Shown here one piece after another: positions 4,846 through 9,445 of a stretch of DNA of 64,000 bases. The notes beneath the pieces are model-generated. The model was not told the DNA's origin and made no database searches. It saw nothing but the letters and a program-made list of their open reading frames with translations. The stretch spans positions 746 to 64,745 of the forward strand of contig MGHM01000016.1 of the NCBI GenBank assembly GCA_001793235.1, in the 5' to 3' direction. Source of the DNA: Candidatus Woesebacteria bacterium RIFCSPLOWO2_01_FULL_44_24b. GTDB lineage: Bacteria; Patescibacteriota; Microgenomatia; UBA8517. Made by a program: the position numbers and the translations under genes. How positions within the stretch are numbered: position 1 is the first letter of the stretch; every line of letters starts with the position of its first letter.

Positions 4846-4987
4846 CAGTTTATAAATCAAGAGAGACGGGTACAGAACTCGCTGGTTGATCCGTCCGGCA
4901 ACCCCGCGCTTATTTGCGGAAGTAGTCAAAAGTGACGAAGGGTGCCAAAACGAGCCCAAAAGGGGATGATTGGCCACAAATTAGTAT
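4846..4987 (+). promoter_or_regulatory. SAM-I (S-box) riboswitch aptamer
   Basis: Hallmark S-box elements AUCAAGAGAG (P1/P2 kink-turn side), GGCAACC (P3 5' arm), GGUGCC (P3 3' arm / pseudoknot partner) and GAUGA (P1 3' side). P3 is extended by inserted hairpins. Lies upstream of metK. Confidence 0.65.
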
Positions 4988-5242: not shown

Positions 5243-6349
5243 ATGAAGACGTATTTTACATCTGAATCAGTAGCCGCCGGGCACCCGGATAAGCTTTGCG
5301 ACCAGATTTCTGACAGCATAGTCGATGCGGCACTTGCGGCTTATGCTGGCTCAAGGGTGGCTGTGGAAACCCTGGTTACCGAAAATAGAATTGTTTTGGC
5401 AGGGGAGGTAAGCTGCCCCAAAAGTCTTCCTTATGCCAAAATAGCTCGCCAAAAGATAAAAGCGTTAGGATACACCGGCGAGCTTTATAATTTTTCCTAT
5501 AAATCCCCCGTCTCCGTATATATCCACCAGCAATCTCCTGATATCGCCGTCGGAGTTGATAACGGCGGCGCGGGGGACCAGGGGATGATGTTTGGCTATG
5601 CATCCAACGAAACCCCGGAGTTAATGCCGCTTCCTATCGCTTTGGCTCATAAGCTGGTTGCAAAAATGGACGAAGTACGAGACAAAAAGATCTTACCTTT
5701 TTTGCGCCCTGATGGCAAAAGCGAGGTGAAAGTGAGATATAAAAACGGCAAACCGGAAAGCGTGGAAATGATTATTCTGGCTGTTCCTCATGACCCCAAA
5801 GTCAGCCCCAAAGAAGTCAAAGCCAAACTTATTGCCAAAGTTATTAAACCGGTACTGGCCGGCTACAAGCTGCATATTCCCGAAGCCAAAAATATTGTTA
5901 TTAACGGCACCGGCAAATGGGAGATTGGCGGGCCGGCAAGTGACACTGGAGTGACCGGCAGGAAAATTATTGTTGATACATATGGCGGGATGGCGCGCCA
6001 CGGAGGTGGCTGCTTTTCCGGTAAAGATCCGTCCAAAGTTGACCGAAGTGGCGCTTATGCGTGCCGATTTTTAGCCAAGAATATTGTCGCGGCCAAGCTG
6101 GCCGAGCGCTGTGAGATGCGAATTGCCTATGTGATTGGCAAAAGAGAACCAGTGGATATCGGTATTGAGTGTTTTGGCACCCAGAAAAAATCGCTACCTT
6201 TTATCCGTAATTTTGCGAAGACATTATTAGACTTGTCTGTAGCCGGTATTATAGATGGTCTCAAACTTAGGCAACCAATCTATGCCAGGACTGCGGTGTA
6301 CGGGCATTTTGGTAGAGAAGAATTTCCCTGGGAAAAGGTGGTTGTATAA
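5243..6349 (+). CDS. metK: S-adenosylmethionine synthetase (methionine adenosyltransferase)
   Basis: FTSESVAAGHPDKLCDQISD, GGGCFSGKDPSKVDRSGAYACRFLAKN and YGHFGR signatures of bacterial MetK. Confidence 0.95.
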   Translation: MKTYFTSESVAAGHPDKLCDQISDSIVDAALAAYAGSRVAVETLVTENRIVLAGEVSCPKSLPYAKIARQKIKALGYTGELYNFSYKSPVSVYIHQQSPDIAVGVDNGGAGDQGMMFGYASNETPELMPLPIALAHKLVAKMDEVRDKKILPFLRPDGKSEVKVRYKNGKPESVEMIILAVPHDPKVSPKEVKAKLIAKVIKPVLAGYKLHIPEAKNIVINGTGKWEIGGPASDTGVTGRKIIVDTYGGMARHGGGCFSGKDPSKVDRSGAYACRFLAKNIVAAKLAERCEMRIAYVIGKREPVDIGIECFGTQKKSLPFIRNFAKTLLDLSVAGIIDGLKLRQPIYARTAVYGHFGREEFPWEKVVV

Positions 6350-6627: not shown

Positions 6628-6875
6628 TATGCTAACATGATTTATTGTGGAAATAAGTCTATCGCCAATATTTGCAAAGTTACTTCTCAGAATTAACCCT
6701 TTTGTACGCTTCAGAGTCATGTGTCAGGGCTACAGCGAGGATTATGAAAATTTTACAGAACTTGTTTGGGAAGACGATAAAAACTTAGATTTTTCTGCCA
6801 CCACATTGATTTGTTCCTTCTGATCTCTCTTAATTCCTTTTGACTTGTCTTAACCTTTTATGATATAAAGTCGCT

Positions 6876-7337
6876 ATGTCTGAATGGCTTACAGAAGAAG
6901 GAGGTCAGGGAGTACCAAGTGAACAACCAGAGTTGGTAATCAGCCAATTTGATAAAGATAAAGCCCTTGAAATCTTAAAGAAAGGTGGAGAAGAAGCACA
7001 AAGGGAGCTTCGTAGCTGGAAGTACGACGATTTATCAGATGATGACCACATTGAGGCGATGGCGGAGTTACTACGATTTGAGTTGGCTGAGATAAGGGGC
7101 GAGGCTATAGATGATATTAGGCCGTATGATTTGCAATCATATAAGCAGACGATGTGGGTTAATCCTGTTCATCAGGCTCTATGGGAGGCAACACGTAATC
7201 GGCTTTATCCAGAGGACGATAGGATGAGTTTCCGTGTAAGGTTTGCGGAATGGACTAACTGGTTCCTCCGTGAGGGACACAAAATTTATTCTTATCCCGA
7301 GTTCGAGGAAAGGACGAAGGAGTTTGGGCTTCTTTAG
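6876..7337 (+). CDS. acidic hypothetical protein, possible partner of the EVE-nuclease gene
   Basis: 153 aa, rich in D/E. Starts after a 250-bp non-coding region and is co-oriented with, and 63 nt upstream of, 7401..8525. Confidence 0.45.
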   Translation: MSEWLTEEGGQGVPSEQPELVISQFDKDKALEILKKGGEEAQRELRSWKYDDLSDDDHIEAMAELLRFELAEIRGEAIDDIRPYDLQSYKQTMWVNPVHQALWEATRNRLYPEDDRMSFRVRFAEWTNWFLREGHKIYSYPEFEERTKEFGLL

Positions 7338-7400
7338 TAAAGCATATTAAAATCTCAATTCTCCTGGAATGATTGGGCTTTTTGAGGTAGAATATGATTA

Positions 7401-8525
7401 ATGTTCACAAAAAGGAAAGTATTTTTAGTAGTTGCCGGAGGCGGTCAAGCCGCTGAGCAACACTTTGAAGATACCATAAGAAGAAAGCGTACCCTCGGCG
7501 AAGTTAGAAACTATTTGCCCTCAGAAGAGATCAAAAAATTAGAAGACATTTATCATAGCGCGGAATTTATTGTCTGGGGAGCAGTTCCTGGACCCCAGAA
7601 TGAGGGTAGATGGGAAAAAATGGATGCTGGGGACATAGTTCTTATTTACAACAAAGGGTATATTAAGTTCATAGGCGAGGTGGCTGCTAAGGTTAGGAAT
7701 CAGGAACTTTCAAGATATTTTTGGCGAGAAAATGAAACAGGAAGCACCTGGGAGCTGATGTATTTTATTGTCAACGAAGAAGAAGTGAATGTGCCAATCG
7801 AGAAATTAAATCCATTCTTGGGCTATCAACTTCATTTTAGACCTCAAGGTTTTCTGATGGTTAATCAGAAAGCTGTTGACAATTTCTCTCGTAGTTATGG
7901 TGATGTTTTAGGAGTACTTAAAACTTTAGAGAAAGGCGAAGAACTGATGCGTGTTCCTTCCAGAGCCGAGCTTTTTAGTTCGGAAATCGACGAACAGCTT
8001 GAAAAAAGACCAACTGAACATGATGAAATACAATGGAGGCTCATAAGGCTAGGGCAATTGGCAAAATGTGACATTTGGATTCCCAGGAATGATCAATCAA
8101 AACAATTTGAGGGAATTAGATTCCGAGATCATGTTTTGTCTCAGATTCACGAAACTTTGGATGTGCCGCCATCGATAAAAAACATAGACGTAGTATGGAA
8201 GTTCGGACCATATTCTATCAAGTCAGCTTTCGAAATTGAAAATAGTACATCGGTTTATTCCGGTATATTGAGGCTTTCGGACCTGCGTGCCGAAAATCCC
8301 AATTCTAACTACCCGCTTTTTATTATTGCTGCCGAGGAAAGAAGGAGAAAAGTTTTTAATGAATTGAAGCGGCCAACTTTTTCAGGTGCTTGCTTGAGGC
8401 TTAATGAGGTTATCAACTTTATTGGATATAAAAAAATCAGAGATATAGACGAGTCATATAAAAACTCCAAGGATTTCGACCCGCAAGTTCTTTTTGCGGC
8501 GGGAGAAAGACCTGAAAACCAGTGA
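7401..8525 (+). CDS. EVE/PUA-like domain + restriction-endonuclease-like domain protein (candidate modification-dependent type IV restriction enzyme)
   Basis: The N-terminus (VFLVVAGG ... FIVWGAVPGP ... RWEKMDAGDIVLIYNKGYIKFIGEVAAKV) matches the EVE/PUA-like beta-barrel pattern. The C-terminal half has the helix + IWIPRND + IDVVWKF + EIE arrangement reminiscent of PD-(D/E)xK-like nucleases. Confidence 0.5.
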   Translation: MFTKRKVFLVVAGGGQAAEQHFEDTIRRKRTLGEVRNYLPSEEIKKLEDIYHSAEFIVWGAVPGPQNEGRWEKMDAGDIVLIYNKGYIKFIGEVAAKVRNQELSRYFWRENETGSTWELMYFIVNEEEVNVPIEKLNPFLGYQLHFRPQGFLMVNQKAVDNFSRSYGDVLGVLKTLEKGEELMRVPSRAELFSSEIDEQLEKRPTEHDEIQWRLIRLGQLAKCDIWIPRNDQSKQFEGIRFRDHVLSQIHETLDVPPSIKNIDVVWKFGPYSIKSAFEIENSTSVYSGILRLSDLRAENPNSNYPLFIIAAEERRRKVFNELKRPTFSGACLRLNEVINFIGYKKIRDIDESYKNSKDFDPQVLFAAGERPENQ

Positions 8526-8992: not shown

Positions 8993-9445
8993 TTACAACT
9001 CCAGTTCCCCACAGGAAACATAAACGCTTGCCAGCGTTGTGGACTTGTGAACATTAATAAGAAGTGGCTGCTGTGCCTTCAGCTCGTCAAAGCCTACGGG
9101 TAAGGTCGTTACTGCTTGGCCGTCCGTTGGAAACTCGAGCGGGTAGACCACCGCGCCGGTATTGGCGCAATCACCGGTATGAATGTGCGAAGGCTGGACA
9201 ACTCCTGCAGGAGCGCCCAGCATGTCTACAGTTACTTCGACTTTGCCGTCTTTCTCTACTAAAGTGGCTGTGCCTGATTCACCGGAGTCGTTCAATTCAT
9301 TTAAAACAACTACCACCGAATTTTCTTCAACAGTTGCCTGTGGAGCCTGATTATAGTCTGCGGGCATGCCGCTTTGGGAGAAAAGCAGCAATCCTATCAC
9401 CGCCACCAAGATAACTGCAAGGACAATGAGCAGATTTTTATTCAC
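8993..9445 (-). CDS. secreted/membrane-anchored CHRD domain protein
   Basis: N-terminal TM or signal peptide. PSHIHTGDCANTGAVVYPL and LINVHKSTTLASVYVSCGEL match the two CHRD motifs. Confidence 0.55.
   Translation of the reverse strand: MNKNLLIVLAVILVAVIGLLLFSQSGMPADYNQAPQATVEENSVVVVLNELNDSGESGTATLVEKDGKVEVTVDMLGAPAGVVQPSHIHTGDCANTGAVVYPLEFPTDGQAVTTLPVGFDELKAQQPLLINVHKSTTLASVYVSCGELEL

What the first reader, a model, noticed from the sequence alone, without database searches (positions are those of the whole stretch)
6876..8525. EVE/PUA-like reader domain fused to a nuclease-like domain, with an acidic upstream partner: candidate type IV (modification-dependent) restriction module
The 374-aa protein has an N-terminal segment matching the EVE/PUA-like pattern (FIVWGAVPGP ... 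RWEKMDAGDIVLIYNKGYIKFIGEVAAKV), which in known families binds modified bases. Its C-terminal half has spaced acidic/lysine residues (IWIPRND ... IDVVWKF ... EIE) in a predicted alpha/beta fold reminiscent of PD-(D/E)xK restriction nucleases. EVE-nuclease fusions are predicted modification-dependent restriction enzymes. The 153-aa highly acidic upstream ORF could be a DNA mimic or regulator. The pair sits after a 250-bp non-coding gap, in an otherwise housekeeping neighbourhood.
Basis: inference. Interest (0 to 1): 0.55.

Follow-up and report, generated by a model that had tools for sequence, protein, structure and literature searches.

The report
Modified-base reader fused to restriction nuclease
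This gene encodes a single protein that joins a pocket domain for reading chemically modified DNA bases to a restriction-type DNA-cutting domain, so it is most likely an untested member of the known class of enzymes that cut only modified (typically phage) DNA; the small acidic gene in front of it is an unrelated orphan.

Summary
Both ORFs exist as described: 153 aa at 6876-7337 and 374 aa at 7401-8525, on the + strand.

- **N-terminal half of the 374-aa protein.** This is a PUA-superfamily reader. Its closest relative is the YTH-like N-domain of Thermococcus gammatolerans McrB, which prefers N6-methyladenine DNA. The profile match has E=1.2e-5. A pLDDT-93 model gives Foldseek E=1.8e-8 and TM 0.71. 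EVE and YTH structures follow in the hit list.
- **C-terminal half.** This is an NmeDI_C (PF27126) restriction-nuclease domain with a PD-(D/E)xK-like layout and a conserved D263...E278-x-E280 triad.
- **Domain partners elsewhere.** The nuclease is also found fused to EVE.
- **Methyltransferases.** The 64-kb window has no methyltransferase-motif ORF. Only 4 of 61 homolog loci have one within 3 kb.
- **Upstream ORF.** The acidic 153-aa ORF is a species-specific orphan. It is absent from all 93 homolog loci, so it is not a partner.

The best reading is a solitary modification-dependent (type IV) restriction endonuclease whose target base is unresolved. The architecture class has already been predicted in the literature, so this is a new member of a known kind.

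Two unusual points: the family is under strong purifying selection across phyla, and in six other lineages a DCTPP1-like pyrophosphatase gene sits directly upstream.

The parts
7401..8525 (+). 374-aa gene: reader-nuclease fusion, a predicted solitary type IV restriction endonuclease
   Evidence: ORF. 836 homologs, the best 120 all 70-76% identical over the full length. The gene as called in public assemblies carries PF27126 NmeDI_C. AlphaFold2 model with mean pLDDT 93.4.
7401..7955 (+). N-terminal reader domain (aa 1-185), PUA superfamily, YTH/EVE-like, of the T. gammatolerans McrB N-domain type
   Evidence: Profile A2 against PDB: 6p0f E=1.2e-5 and 6ut5 E=4.5e-4, covering nearly the whole domain. 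Foldseek: 6p0f E=1.8e-8, TM 0.71; then VcaM4I, THYN1-EVE, YTHDC2 and 2eve. The domain is separable and is fused elsewhere to NucS_C, HNH, AAA_5, ParB_N and Mrr_cat.
7575..7751 (+). Span holding the three conserved tryptophans W59 (7575-7577), W108 (7722-7724) and W117 (7749-7751): candidate aromatic cage for a flipped modified base
   Evidence: W59 and W108 are invariant and W117 nearly invariant in 19 domains about 30% identical. W108 is 97% and W117 84% conserved in A3. They align to W, W and F of TgMcrB. Their position in the pocket is inferred; the model coordinates were not inspectable.
7956..8000 (+). Flexible linker (aa about 186-200)
   Evidence: The only low-confidence stretch of the model (pLDDT block 56); pTM 0.58 despite pLDDT 93. 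It is also the domain boundary in the representative hits.
8001..8525 (+). C-terminal NmeDI_C restriction-nuclease domain (aa 201-374) with PD-(D/E)xK-like alpha-beta-beta-beta-alpha-beta order
   Evidence: PADLOC REase_II E=1.3e-8; 16 of 16 diverse relatives hit the same model, best 3.3e-19. PF27126 on the gene product. Secondary-structure order H206-220, E224-226, E264-268, E272-279, H286-298, E306-310. Weak Foldseek hits to BsaWI, EcoT38I and EcoO109I, region of the model not checked.
8187..8240 (+). Candidate catalytic triad D263 (8187-8189), E278 (8232-8234), E280 (8238-8240). D231 (8091-8093), H207, R291 and D294 are also conserved.
   Evidence: 89-92% conserved across about 83 divergent C-domains; 3 sequences have K at position 280. 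D263 lies just before beta2, and E278/E280 lie at the end of beta3.
6876..7337 (+). 153-aa acidic ORF: species-specific orphan; no evidence that it belongs to the system
   Evidence: Only match is itself, P0271 from Candidatus Woesebacteria. No Pfam or PADLOC hit and only a non-significant NCBIfam match (E=0.21). No relative in 93 homolog loci or among 154 upstream ORFs. Not MazG-like.
6840..6869 (+). Promoter-like element: TTGACT (6840-6845), TG (6861-6862), TATAAA (6864-6869), ending 6 nt before the ATG of ORF153. It may drive transcription of ORF153 and the 374-aa gene.
   Evidence: Read directly from the sequence. The consensus scan did not report it. Function is inferred.

Best explanation
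The 374-aa protein is a solitary, single-chain, modification-dependent (type IV) restriction endonuclease.

- **Reader (inferred).** The N-terminal YTH/EVE-like domain scans DNA and flips a modified base into a pocket lined by W59, W108 and W117.
- **Nuclease (inferred).** This tethers the C-terminal NmeDI-type domain, with active site D263/E278/E280 plus metal, which cuts nearby DNA. It probably needs two protomers for a double-strand break.
- **Self-protection (inferred).** Host DNA is spared because it lacks the modification, so no methyltransferase or partner protein is needed.
- **Target base (unresolved).** N6-methyladenine is suggested by the closest solved relative. A 5-substituted cytosine is suggested by the DCTPP1-like partner gene in other lineages.
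- **Shown here.** The identity of both domains, the conserved residues, the modular shuffling of both domains, the solitary context, and the orphan status of ORF153.
For: - **Reader identity.** Profile match to TgMcrB-N (6p0f E=1.2e-5; 6ut5 E=4.5e-4). Foldseek on a pLDDT-93 model gives 6p0f E=1.8e-8 and TM 0.71, followed by the EVE-HNH enzyme VcaM4I, THYN1-EVE with 5mC DNA, and YTHDC2. TgMcrB-N binds N6mA DNA better than unmodified or 5mC DNA and has little affinity for RNA (PMC7544203 section 16; PMC7680126 discussion).
- **Reader partners.** The same reader is fused to NucS-like PD-(D/E)xK, HNH, McrB-type AAA_5 and ParB_N domains and to Mrr_cat.
- **Nuclease identity.** PADLOC REase_II, PF27126 NmeDI_C, conserved D...ExE on beta2/beta3. 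The same nuclease domain is fused to a Pfam EVE domain in P0264.
- **No cognate methyltransferase.** No MTase-motif ORF in the 64-kb window. Only 4 of 61 homolog loci have one within 3 kb, and in L044 that MTase has its own HpaII-type REase.
- **Variable contexts.** Some neighbourhoods are mobile or defence-like: IS110, RT/Prim-Pol/NACHT, HepT/MNT.
- **Wide distribution.** The family is scattered across very different phyla.
- **Literature.** PUA-nuclease fusions are experimentally validated modification-dependent enzymes (PMC6765204, PMC7897488). YTH-like domains fused to PD-(D/E)XK nucleases were already detected in silico (PMC7641849).
Against: - No biochemical or phage data exist for any member of this family.
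- The family evolves slowly: dN is 0.15-0.28 with saturated dS, and identity is 70-76% between Woesebacteria and Acidobacteriota. PMC7641849 links defence-associated EVE domains to fast evolution.
- The window neighbourhood is housekeeping, with no flanking repeats or tRNA genes.
- Neighbours in other loci (Vsr, DCTPP1-like, LexA) and AlkD-like in this window have a DNA-hygiene flavour.
- The fold match of the C-domain to solved restriction enzymes is weak (E 0.1-1.1), no solved structure matches by sequence, and the usual Lys is a Glu.
- Pocket geometry was not inspected.
Confidence: 0.6

Rival explanations
1. A genome-maintenance nuclease rather than a defence gene. The reader would recognise a damaged or aberrantly modified base in the cell's own DNA, such as an alkylated or mis-incorporated methylated base, and the nuclease would nick there to start repair. 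In some lineages it would work with a dNTP-pool sanitiser.
For: - Strong purifying selection in both domains across phyla.
- Presence in many reduced CPR genomes.
- Housekeeping context, with an AlkD-like DNA_alkylation gene 1.2 kb downstream.
- A DCTPP1-like pyrophosphatase sits directly upstream or overlapping in six lineages.
- Vsr is adjacent in four loci and LexA-like genes lie near three.
Against: - The distribution is scattered across distant phyla and the neighbourhoods vary.
- The nuclease family is named after a restriction enzyme and matches a defence-system model.
- The Vsr neighbours come with C5-MTases, which sufficiently explains their presence.
- A MutT-type sanitiser next to the type IV enzyme SauUSI is a precedent within defence (PMC7641849 section 11).
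Confidence: 0.15
2. A classical type II restriction endonuclease like R.NmeDI. It would cut an unmethylated sequence and be kept in check by a methyltransferase encoded elsewhere in the genome, with the N-domain serving as a sequence-recognition or effector domain.
For: - The C-domain family is named for R.NmeDI, a type II enzyme with a cognate MTase (PMC2095814).
- PADLOC and RefSeq label relatives 'type II restriction endonuclease'.
- In L034 a C5-MTase ends 45 bp upstream of the homolog on the same strand, with Vsr.
Against: - No MTase-motif ORF in the 64-kb window, and 57 of 61 loci have none within 3 kb.
- In L044 the nearby MTase has its own HpaII-type enzyme.
- The match to the 351-position REase_II model covers only model positions 167-308, so the N-domain is not that of NmeDI-type enzymes.
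- The N-domain is homologous to a modified-base reader.
- Only 64 kb of the genome was seen, so a distant MTase cannot be excluded.
Confidence: 0.08
3. An RNA-directed enzyme. The YTH-like domain would read m6A or another modified base in RNA (rRNA, tRNA, tmRNA or viral RNA) and the nuclease would cleave RNA, as proposed for YTH-containing CoCoNuT systems.
For: - Eukaryotic YTH domains read m6A in RNA, and YTH-like domains occur in systems predicted to target RNA (PMC10542128).
- One NmeDI_C relative is fused to a HEPN domain.
Against: - The closest solved relative has little affinity for RNA (PMC7544203 section 16).
- The C-domain belongs to a DNA restriction-nuclease family.
- No RNA-related neighbours recur.
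Confidence: 0.04
4. One reading: the acidic 153-aa protein is a DNA mimic or regulator that controls the nuclease.
For: - Same strand, 63 bp apart, behind one promoter-like element.
- Acidic, with pI 4.64.
- The pair is kept in all recovered copies of this species' locus.
Against: - An orphan among 5.8 billion clusters.
- Absent from all 93 homolog loci and 154 upstream ORFs.
- An early pairwise hit to an Acidobacterial upstream ORF (E=6e-4) was not reproduced (E=1.3).
- No significant family hit and no recognisable ribosome-binding site. It may not be translated at all.
Confidence: 0.06

Closest known systems
Thermococcus gammatolerans McrB (YTH-like N-domain + GTPase; PDB 6p0f, 6p0g, 6ut5)
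   Same: The reader domain is homologous over its whole length. Two of the three conserved aromatic positions are Trp in both proteins. It is used as the specificity module of a restriction system.
   Different: Identity is about 20%.
VcaM4I / TspA15I group (EVE-HNH modification-dependent endonucleases; PDB 6yex)
   Same: One-chain architecture of a PUA-superfamily reader plus a nuclease. Solitary type IV logic. Third-best structural match (E=6.3e-4).
   Different: The nuclease is HNH, not PD-(D/E)xK-like. There is no sequence similarity.
R.NmeDI of Neisseria meningitidis (type II, RCCGGY, cuts on both sides; Pfam NmeDI_C)
   Same: The C-terminal nuclease domain family.
   Different: NmeDI has a cognate, overlapping methyltransferase and cuts unmethylated sites (PMC2095814). 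Only positions 167-308 of the 351-position REase_II model match here, so the N-terminal half differs.
Mrr and MspJI-type enzymes (reader + PD-(D/E)xK type IV enzymes); Halorubrum ezzemoulense WP_129452657
   Same: The same logic of a reader fused to a PD-(D/E)xK nuclease. The Halorubrum protein has this very reader domain (hhalign 99.8%) fused to Mrr_cat.
   Different: NmeDI_C is not detectably similar to Mrr_cat. MspJI uses an SRA-like reader for 5mC (own knowledge).

Membership tests
PUA superfamily, YTH/EVE-like reader (TgMcrB-N type) | Significant sequence-profile similarity to a solved member over the whole domain | tested here: met
   Profile A2 against PDB: 6p0f E=1.2e-5 (profile positions 2-148 to chain residues 3-158) and 6ut5 E=4.5e-4. 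The shallow family profile alone gave only E=0.22.
PUA superfamily, YTH/EVE-like reader (TgMcrB-N type) | Fold match to solved YTH/EVE structures | tested here: met
   Foldseek on the pLDDT-93.4 model: 6p0f E=1.8e-8, prob 1.00, TM (target) 0.71. Further hits: 6yex, 5j3e, 9h35, 3eop, 2eve.
PUA superfamily, YTH/EVE-like reader (TgMcrB-N type) | Aromatic cage for the flipped modified base | tested here: inconclusive
   W59, W108 and W117 are invariant or nearly so and align to W/W/F of TgMcrB.
Pfam EVE (PF01878) | Score above the Pfam gathering threshold | tested here: not met
   No Pfam hit for the protein at E<=1. Only 3 of 19 diverse N-domains gave weak EVE hits, best E=0.01.
NmeDI_C (PF27126) restriction-nuclease domain | Match to the family model | tested here: met
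   Precomputed PF27126 on the identical gene product in L094-L098 and on all 120 listed homologs. PADLOC REase_II E=1.3e-8, with 16 of 16 relatives matching. The local Pfam copy lacks this model.
PD-(D/E)xK nuclease superfamily | alpha-beta-beta-beta-alpha-beta core with an acidic residue at the start of beta2 and (D/E)xK on beta3 | tested here: inconclusive
Type IV (modification-dependent) restriction enzyme | No cognate methyltransferase | tested here: met
   No MTase-motif ORF in the 64-kb window. 57 of 61 homolog loci have none within 3 kb. The motif screen is crude and the rest of the genome was not seen.
Type IV (modification-dependent) restriction enzyme | Cleavage requires a modified base; restricts modified phage or plasmid DNA | not testable with these tools
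   Needs biochemistry and phage assays.
Type II restriction-modification system (NmeDI-like) | Adjacent cognate methyltransferase | tested here: not met
   The exception is L034, where an MTase ends 45 bp upstream.
McrBC system | McrB AAA+ GTPase and McrC partner | tested here: not met
   No AAA_5 domain in the protein and no McrB or McrC gene among the neighbours. Relatives P0227, P0231 and P0258 do have AAA_5.
Two-gene module with a DNA-mimic or regulator partner (ORF153) | Partner gene co-occurs with the nuclease across genomes | tested here: not met

The most novel reading that the evidence does not exclude
The family may not be an arms-race defence gene. It could be a slowly evolving 'modified-base surveillance' nuclease spread across CPR bacteria, Acidobacteriota and other phyla. 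In several lineages it would form a two-gene operon with a DCTPP1-like sanitiser of modified dNTPs. The sanitiser would keep one universal modified base out of host DNA, and the nuclease would destroy any DNA that carries it. If the base is N6-methyladenine read without sequence context, it would also be the first one-chain, context-independent 6mA-dependent restriction enzyme of the YTH class.
Probability: 0.15. Interest if true: 0.6.

Novelty: new member of a known kind. Interest (0 to 1): 0.38.

Why it matters
- **The kind is established.** PUA-reader/nuclease fusions are validated modification-dependent restriction enzymes and useful epigenetic tools (PMC6765204, PMC7897488).
- **The YTH branch is untested.** In 2024, YTH-NTPase and YTH-HNH fusions were still listed as future work (PMC11037411).
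- **This family is large and public databases call its members 'hypothetical protein'.** It has 836 close homologs and 2807 representative hits.
- **It is a good expression candidate.** It is a single chain with a confident structure model and clear residues to mutate.
- **Possible practical use.** A 6mA-dependent or 5hmC-dependent cutter could be useful for methylome mapping.
- **Biology.** It would add to the sparse picture of defence in CPR bacteria. The link to a DCTPP1-like pyrophosphatase suggests how hosts avoid self-restriction.

Tried and rejected
- **First structure prediction.** Prediction with 34 close homologs failed (pLDDT 40). A 101-sequence alignment of divergent domain relatives fixed this (pLDDT 93.4).
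- **Direct Pfam and NCBIfam scans of the 374-aa protein.** Nothing found, because the local Pfam copy lacks PF27126.
- **Single-sequence PDB search.** Nothing found.
- **C-domain profile against PDB.** Only chance hits such as kallikrein.
- **NmeDI_C against Mrr_cat by hhalign.** No similarity.
- **ORF153 as a partner.** Rejected.
- **ORF153 as a diverged MazG-like protein.** Rejected.
- **ORF153 similarity to the Acidobacterial 226-aa upstream ORF.** The first hit (E=6e-4) was not reproduced (E=1.3).
- **The '6 loci with a C5 methyltransferase' cluster.** This was a single-linkage artefact joining MTases and LexA-like proteins through a LexA-MTase fusion. The true count is 4 loci.
- **Phage origin.** No full-length relative in viral contigs or phage records.
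- **Mobile-element insertion in the window.** No tRNA, flanking repeats or RNA family found.
Full report
**Observation.** The two ORFs are real and lie where stated: 6876..7337 (+, 153 aa) and 7401..8525 (+, 374 aa). The 153-aa ORF is acidic, with pI 4.64 and a net charge of about -14, and it follows a 248-bp gap. The neighbourhood is housekeeping-like: MsrB, PspC-like, MetK, an AlkD-like DNA_alkylation protein, and PAS and sensor-kinase genes. The only database match of the 153-aa ORF comes from a Candidatus Woesebacteria genome (CPR), so that is taken as the source organism.

**The 374-aa protein belongs to a large, strongly conserved family.** It has 836 homologs at E<=1e-3, and the best 120 are all 70-76% identical over the full length. 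A profile search of 1.84 billion representatives found 2807 hits and showed that the two halves are separable modules, at about aa 8-185 and about aa 200-355. Full-length members occur in Acidobacteriota, many Patescibacteria lineages, Omnitrophota, Verrucomicrobiota, Planctomycetia, Actinomycetota, Smithella and a Lokiarchaeal MAG. Public sources name them 'hypothetical protein'.

**N-terminal domain.**
- Direct Pfam and NCBIfam scans found nothing.
- A profile of 19 divergent N-domains, about 30% identical to each other, matched the N-terminal domain of Thermococcus gammatolerans McrB over almost its whole length. The matches were 6p0f at E=1.2e-5 and full-length 6ut5 at E=4.5e-4.
- The first AlphaFold2 run, with close homologs only, failed (pLDDT 40). 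A 101-sequence alignment of divergent relatives gave mean pLDDT 93.4.
- Foldseek against the PDB ranked 6p0f and 6p0g first (E=1.8e-8, probability 1.00, target TM 0.71). Next came the EVE-HNH endonuclease VcaM4I (6.3e-4), THYN1-EVE bound to 5mC DNA, YTHDC2 and the EVE structures 3eop and 2eve.
- The TgMcrB N-domain is YTH-like. It binds N6mA DNA better than unmodified or 5mC DNA and has little affinity for RNA (PMC7544203 section 16; PMC7680126).
- Three tryptophans (W59, W108, W117) are invariant or nearly so. They align with W, W and F of TgMcrB, which fits the two- to three-residue aromatic cage of such readers. I could not inspect the model coordinates, so their place in the pocket is inferred.
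- The domain does not reach the Pfam EVE threshold. This agrees with the published remark that such prokaryotic YTH-like domains cannot be told apart clearly from EVE (PMC7641849).

**C-terminal domain.**
- It matches PADLOC's 'Type II restriction enzyme' model (E=1.3e-8, aa 193-328). All 16 divergent relatives tested match the same model, with a best E of 3.3e-19.
- Public pre-computed annotation places the identical gene product in PF27126, NmeDI_C.
- The model shows the element order alpha(206-220), beta(224-226), beta(264-268), beta(272-279), alpha(286-298), beta(306-310).
- Across about 83 divergent domains, the most conserved polar residues are H207, D231, D263, E278, E280, R291 and D294.
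- D263 precedes beta2, and E278-x-E280 ends beta3. These are the canonical PD-(D/E)xK positions, with Glu in place of Lys. From my own knowledge this matches the BamHI variant. Three relatives have Lys at position 280.
- Fold matches to solved restriction enzymes (BsaWI, EcoT38I, EcoO109I) are weak, with E between 0.095 and 1.1, and I did not check which part of the model they align to.

**Domain shuffling.**
- It is also fused to Mrr_cat in a Halorubrum megaplasmid protein, with hhalign probability 99.8%.
- An Archaeoglobus provirus carries it in an AAA ATPase.
- The nuclease is fused elsewhere to a Pfam EVE domain (P0264), HEPN and TPR arrays.
- This mix-and-match of reader and effector is the signature of modification-dependent restriction enzymes (PMC6765204, PMC7641849).

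**Context.**
- Neighbourhoods of homologs differ from genome to genome. Examples are IS110 transposases, an RT/Prim-Pol/NACHT island, ABC transporters and HepT/MNT.
- The window has no methyltransferase-motif ORF in 64 kb.
- Only 4 of 61 full-length loci have such an ORF within 3 kb, and none of 19 loci with C-domain-only relatives does.
- In those four loci (L034, L044, L046, L051) a C5-methyltransferase comes with Vsr. In L044 it also comes with its own HpaII-type endonuclease. These look like neighbouring R-M systems, not cognate partners. L034 remains ambiguous, because the MTase ends 45 bp upstream on the same strand.
- No full-length relative was found in viral contigs or phage records.
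- No tRNA, flanking repeat or RNA gene marks the window locus as an insertion.

**The upstream 153-aa ORF is not a partner.**
- Its only match among 5.8 billion clusters is itself.
- It has no significant family hit.
- It has no relative in any of 93 loci carrying homologs or among 154 same-strand ORFs upstream of homologs.
- An early pairwise hit (E=6e-4) was not reproduced (E=1.3).
- A promoter-like element (TTGACT, TG, TATAAA) ends 6 nt before its ATG, and no ribosome-binding site is visible. The ORF may be translated from a leaderless transcript or not at all.

**What recurs instead.**
- In six distinct lineages, whose homologs are 48-76% identical to ours, a roughly 115-aa MazG-like gene lies 0-31 bp upstream or overlaps the start codon.
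- Its profile matches dCTP pyrophosphatase 1 (RS21-C6) at E=1.2e-25.
- From my own knowledge, DCTPP1 prefers 5-modified dCTP. A pool sanitiser would protect a host that carries a modification-dependent nuclease. A MutT-type gene beside SauUSI homologs is a published parallel (PMC7641849 section 11).
- This points to a modified cytosine as the target, whereas the nearest solved reader points to N6mA. The presence of C5-methyltransferases next to some members argues against plain 5mC. The target base is unresolved.

**Selection.** Against homologs from other phyla, dN is 0.15-0.28 while synonymous sites are saturated, and both domains are similarly conserved. This is old divergence under strong purifying selection, not recent transfer, and it is atypical for arms-race genes. 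It keeps alive a genome-hygiene reading, given the Vsr, LexA-like, DCTPP1-like and AlkD-like neighbours. The restriction-type fusion partners and the scattered distribution favour defence.

**Verdict.** YTH-like domains fused to PD-(D/E)XK nucleases were already noted in silico (PMC7641849), and PUA-nuclease fusions are validated enzymes (PMC6765204, PMC7897488). This is therefore a new, uncharacterised member of a known kind. It has a confident model, clear residues to mutate and a simple set of decisive experiments.

Noticed in passing
window 4851-4975 (+): Sub-threshold match to the SAM riboswitch (RF00162, 30.4 bits against gathering 44.4, E=8e-4, full model length), about 270 bp upstream of the MetK gene (5243-6349). 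The position is plausible for a real, divergent CPR SAM riboswitch.
   Followed up: no
It is a likely operon partner that is absent from this window.
   Followed up: partly
L046:7399-8958 (-): A 519-aa protein fuses a LexA DNA-binding domain and an S24 peptidase to a C5 cytosine DNA methyltransferase. This is an unusual architecture, on a contig binned to a Lokiarchaeal MAG.
   Followed up: no
L034:3446-4956, L044:6134-8542, L051:6199-7711, L046:6172-6561: Vsr mismatch endonuclease genes and C5 methyltransferases lie next to one sub-clade of the family. In L044 there is a complete HpaII-type R-M system. In L051 the neighbour is a 613-aa protein with an MrfA Zn-binding domain.
   Followed up: partly
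window 7401-8525 compared with L005, L015, L017, L023, L026, L027, L030: Synonymous sites are saturated while dN is only 0.15-0.28, and identity is 70-76% between CPR and Acidobacteriota proteins. This is unusually slow evolution for a predicted defence gene.
   Followed up: partly
window 6840-6876: An extended -10 promoter-like element (TTGACT, 18-nt spacer with TG, TATAAA) ends 6 nt before the ATG of the orphan ORF153, which has no visible ribosome-binding site. The transcript may be leaderless, or the ORF may be an untranslated leader of the nuclease gene.
   Followed up: no
An Archaeoglobus provirus AAA ATPase carries the same domain.
   Followed up: no
window 8993-9445 (-) and L033:4667-5104: The 150-aa ORF with a sub-threshold CHRD-domain match (E=1.4e-4, 23.1 bits against a 24.1 cut-off), just downstream of the nuclease gene, has a 48%-identical relative about 1.5 kb downstream of the homolog in an Andersenbacteria contig. 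It was the only window neighbour with any match in homolog loci.
   Followed up: no
L074-L093, L099:3458-4723, L101:1434-2693: Relatives of about 415-435 aa with only the C-domain carry N-terminal regions of 190-250 aa with no Pfam match. They are also solitary. These regions may be further unrecognised sensor domains.
   Followed up: partly
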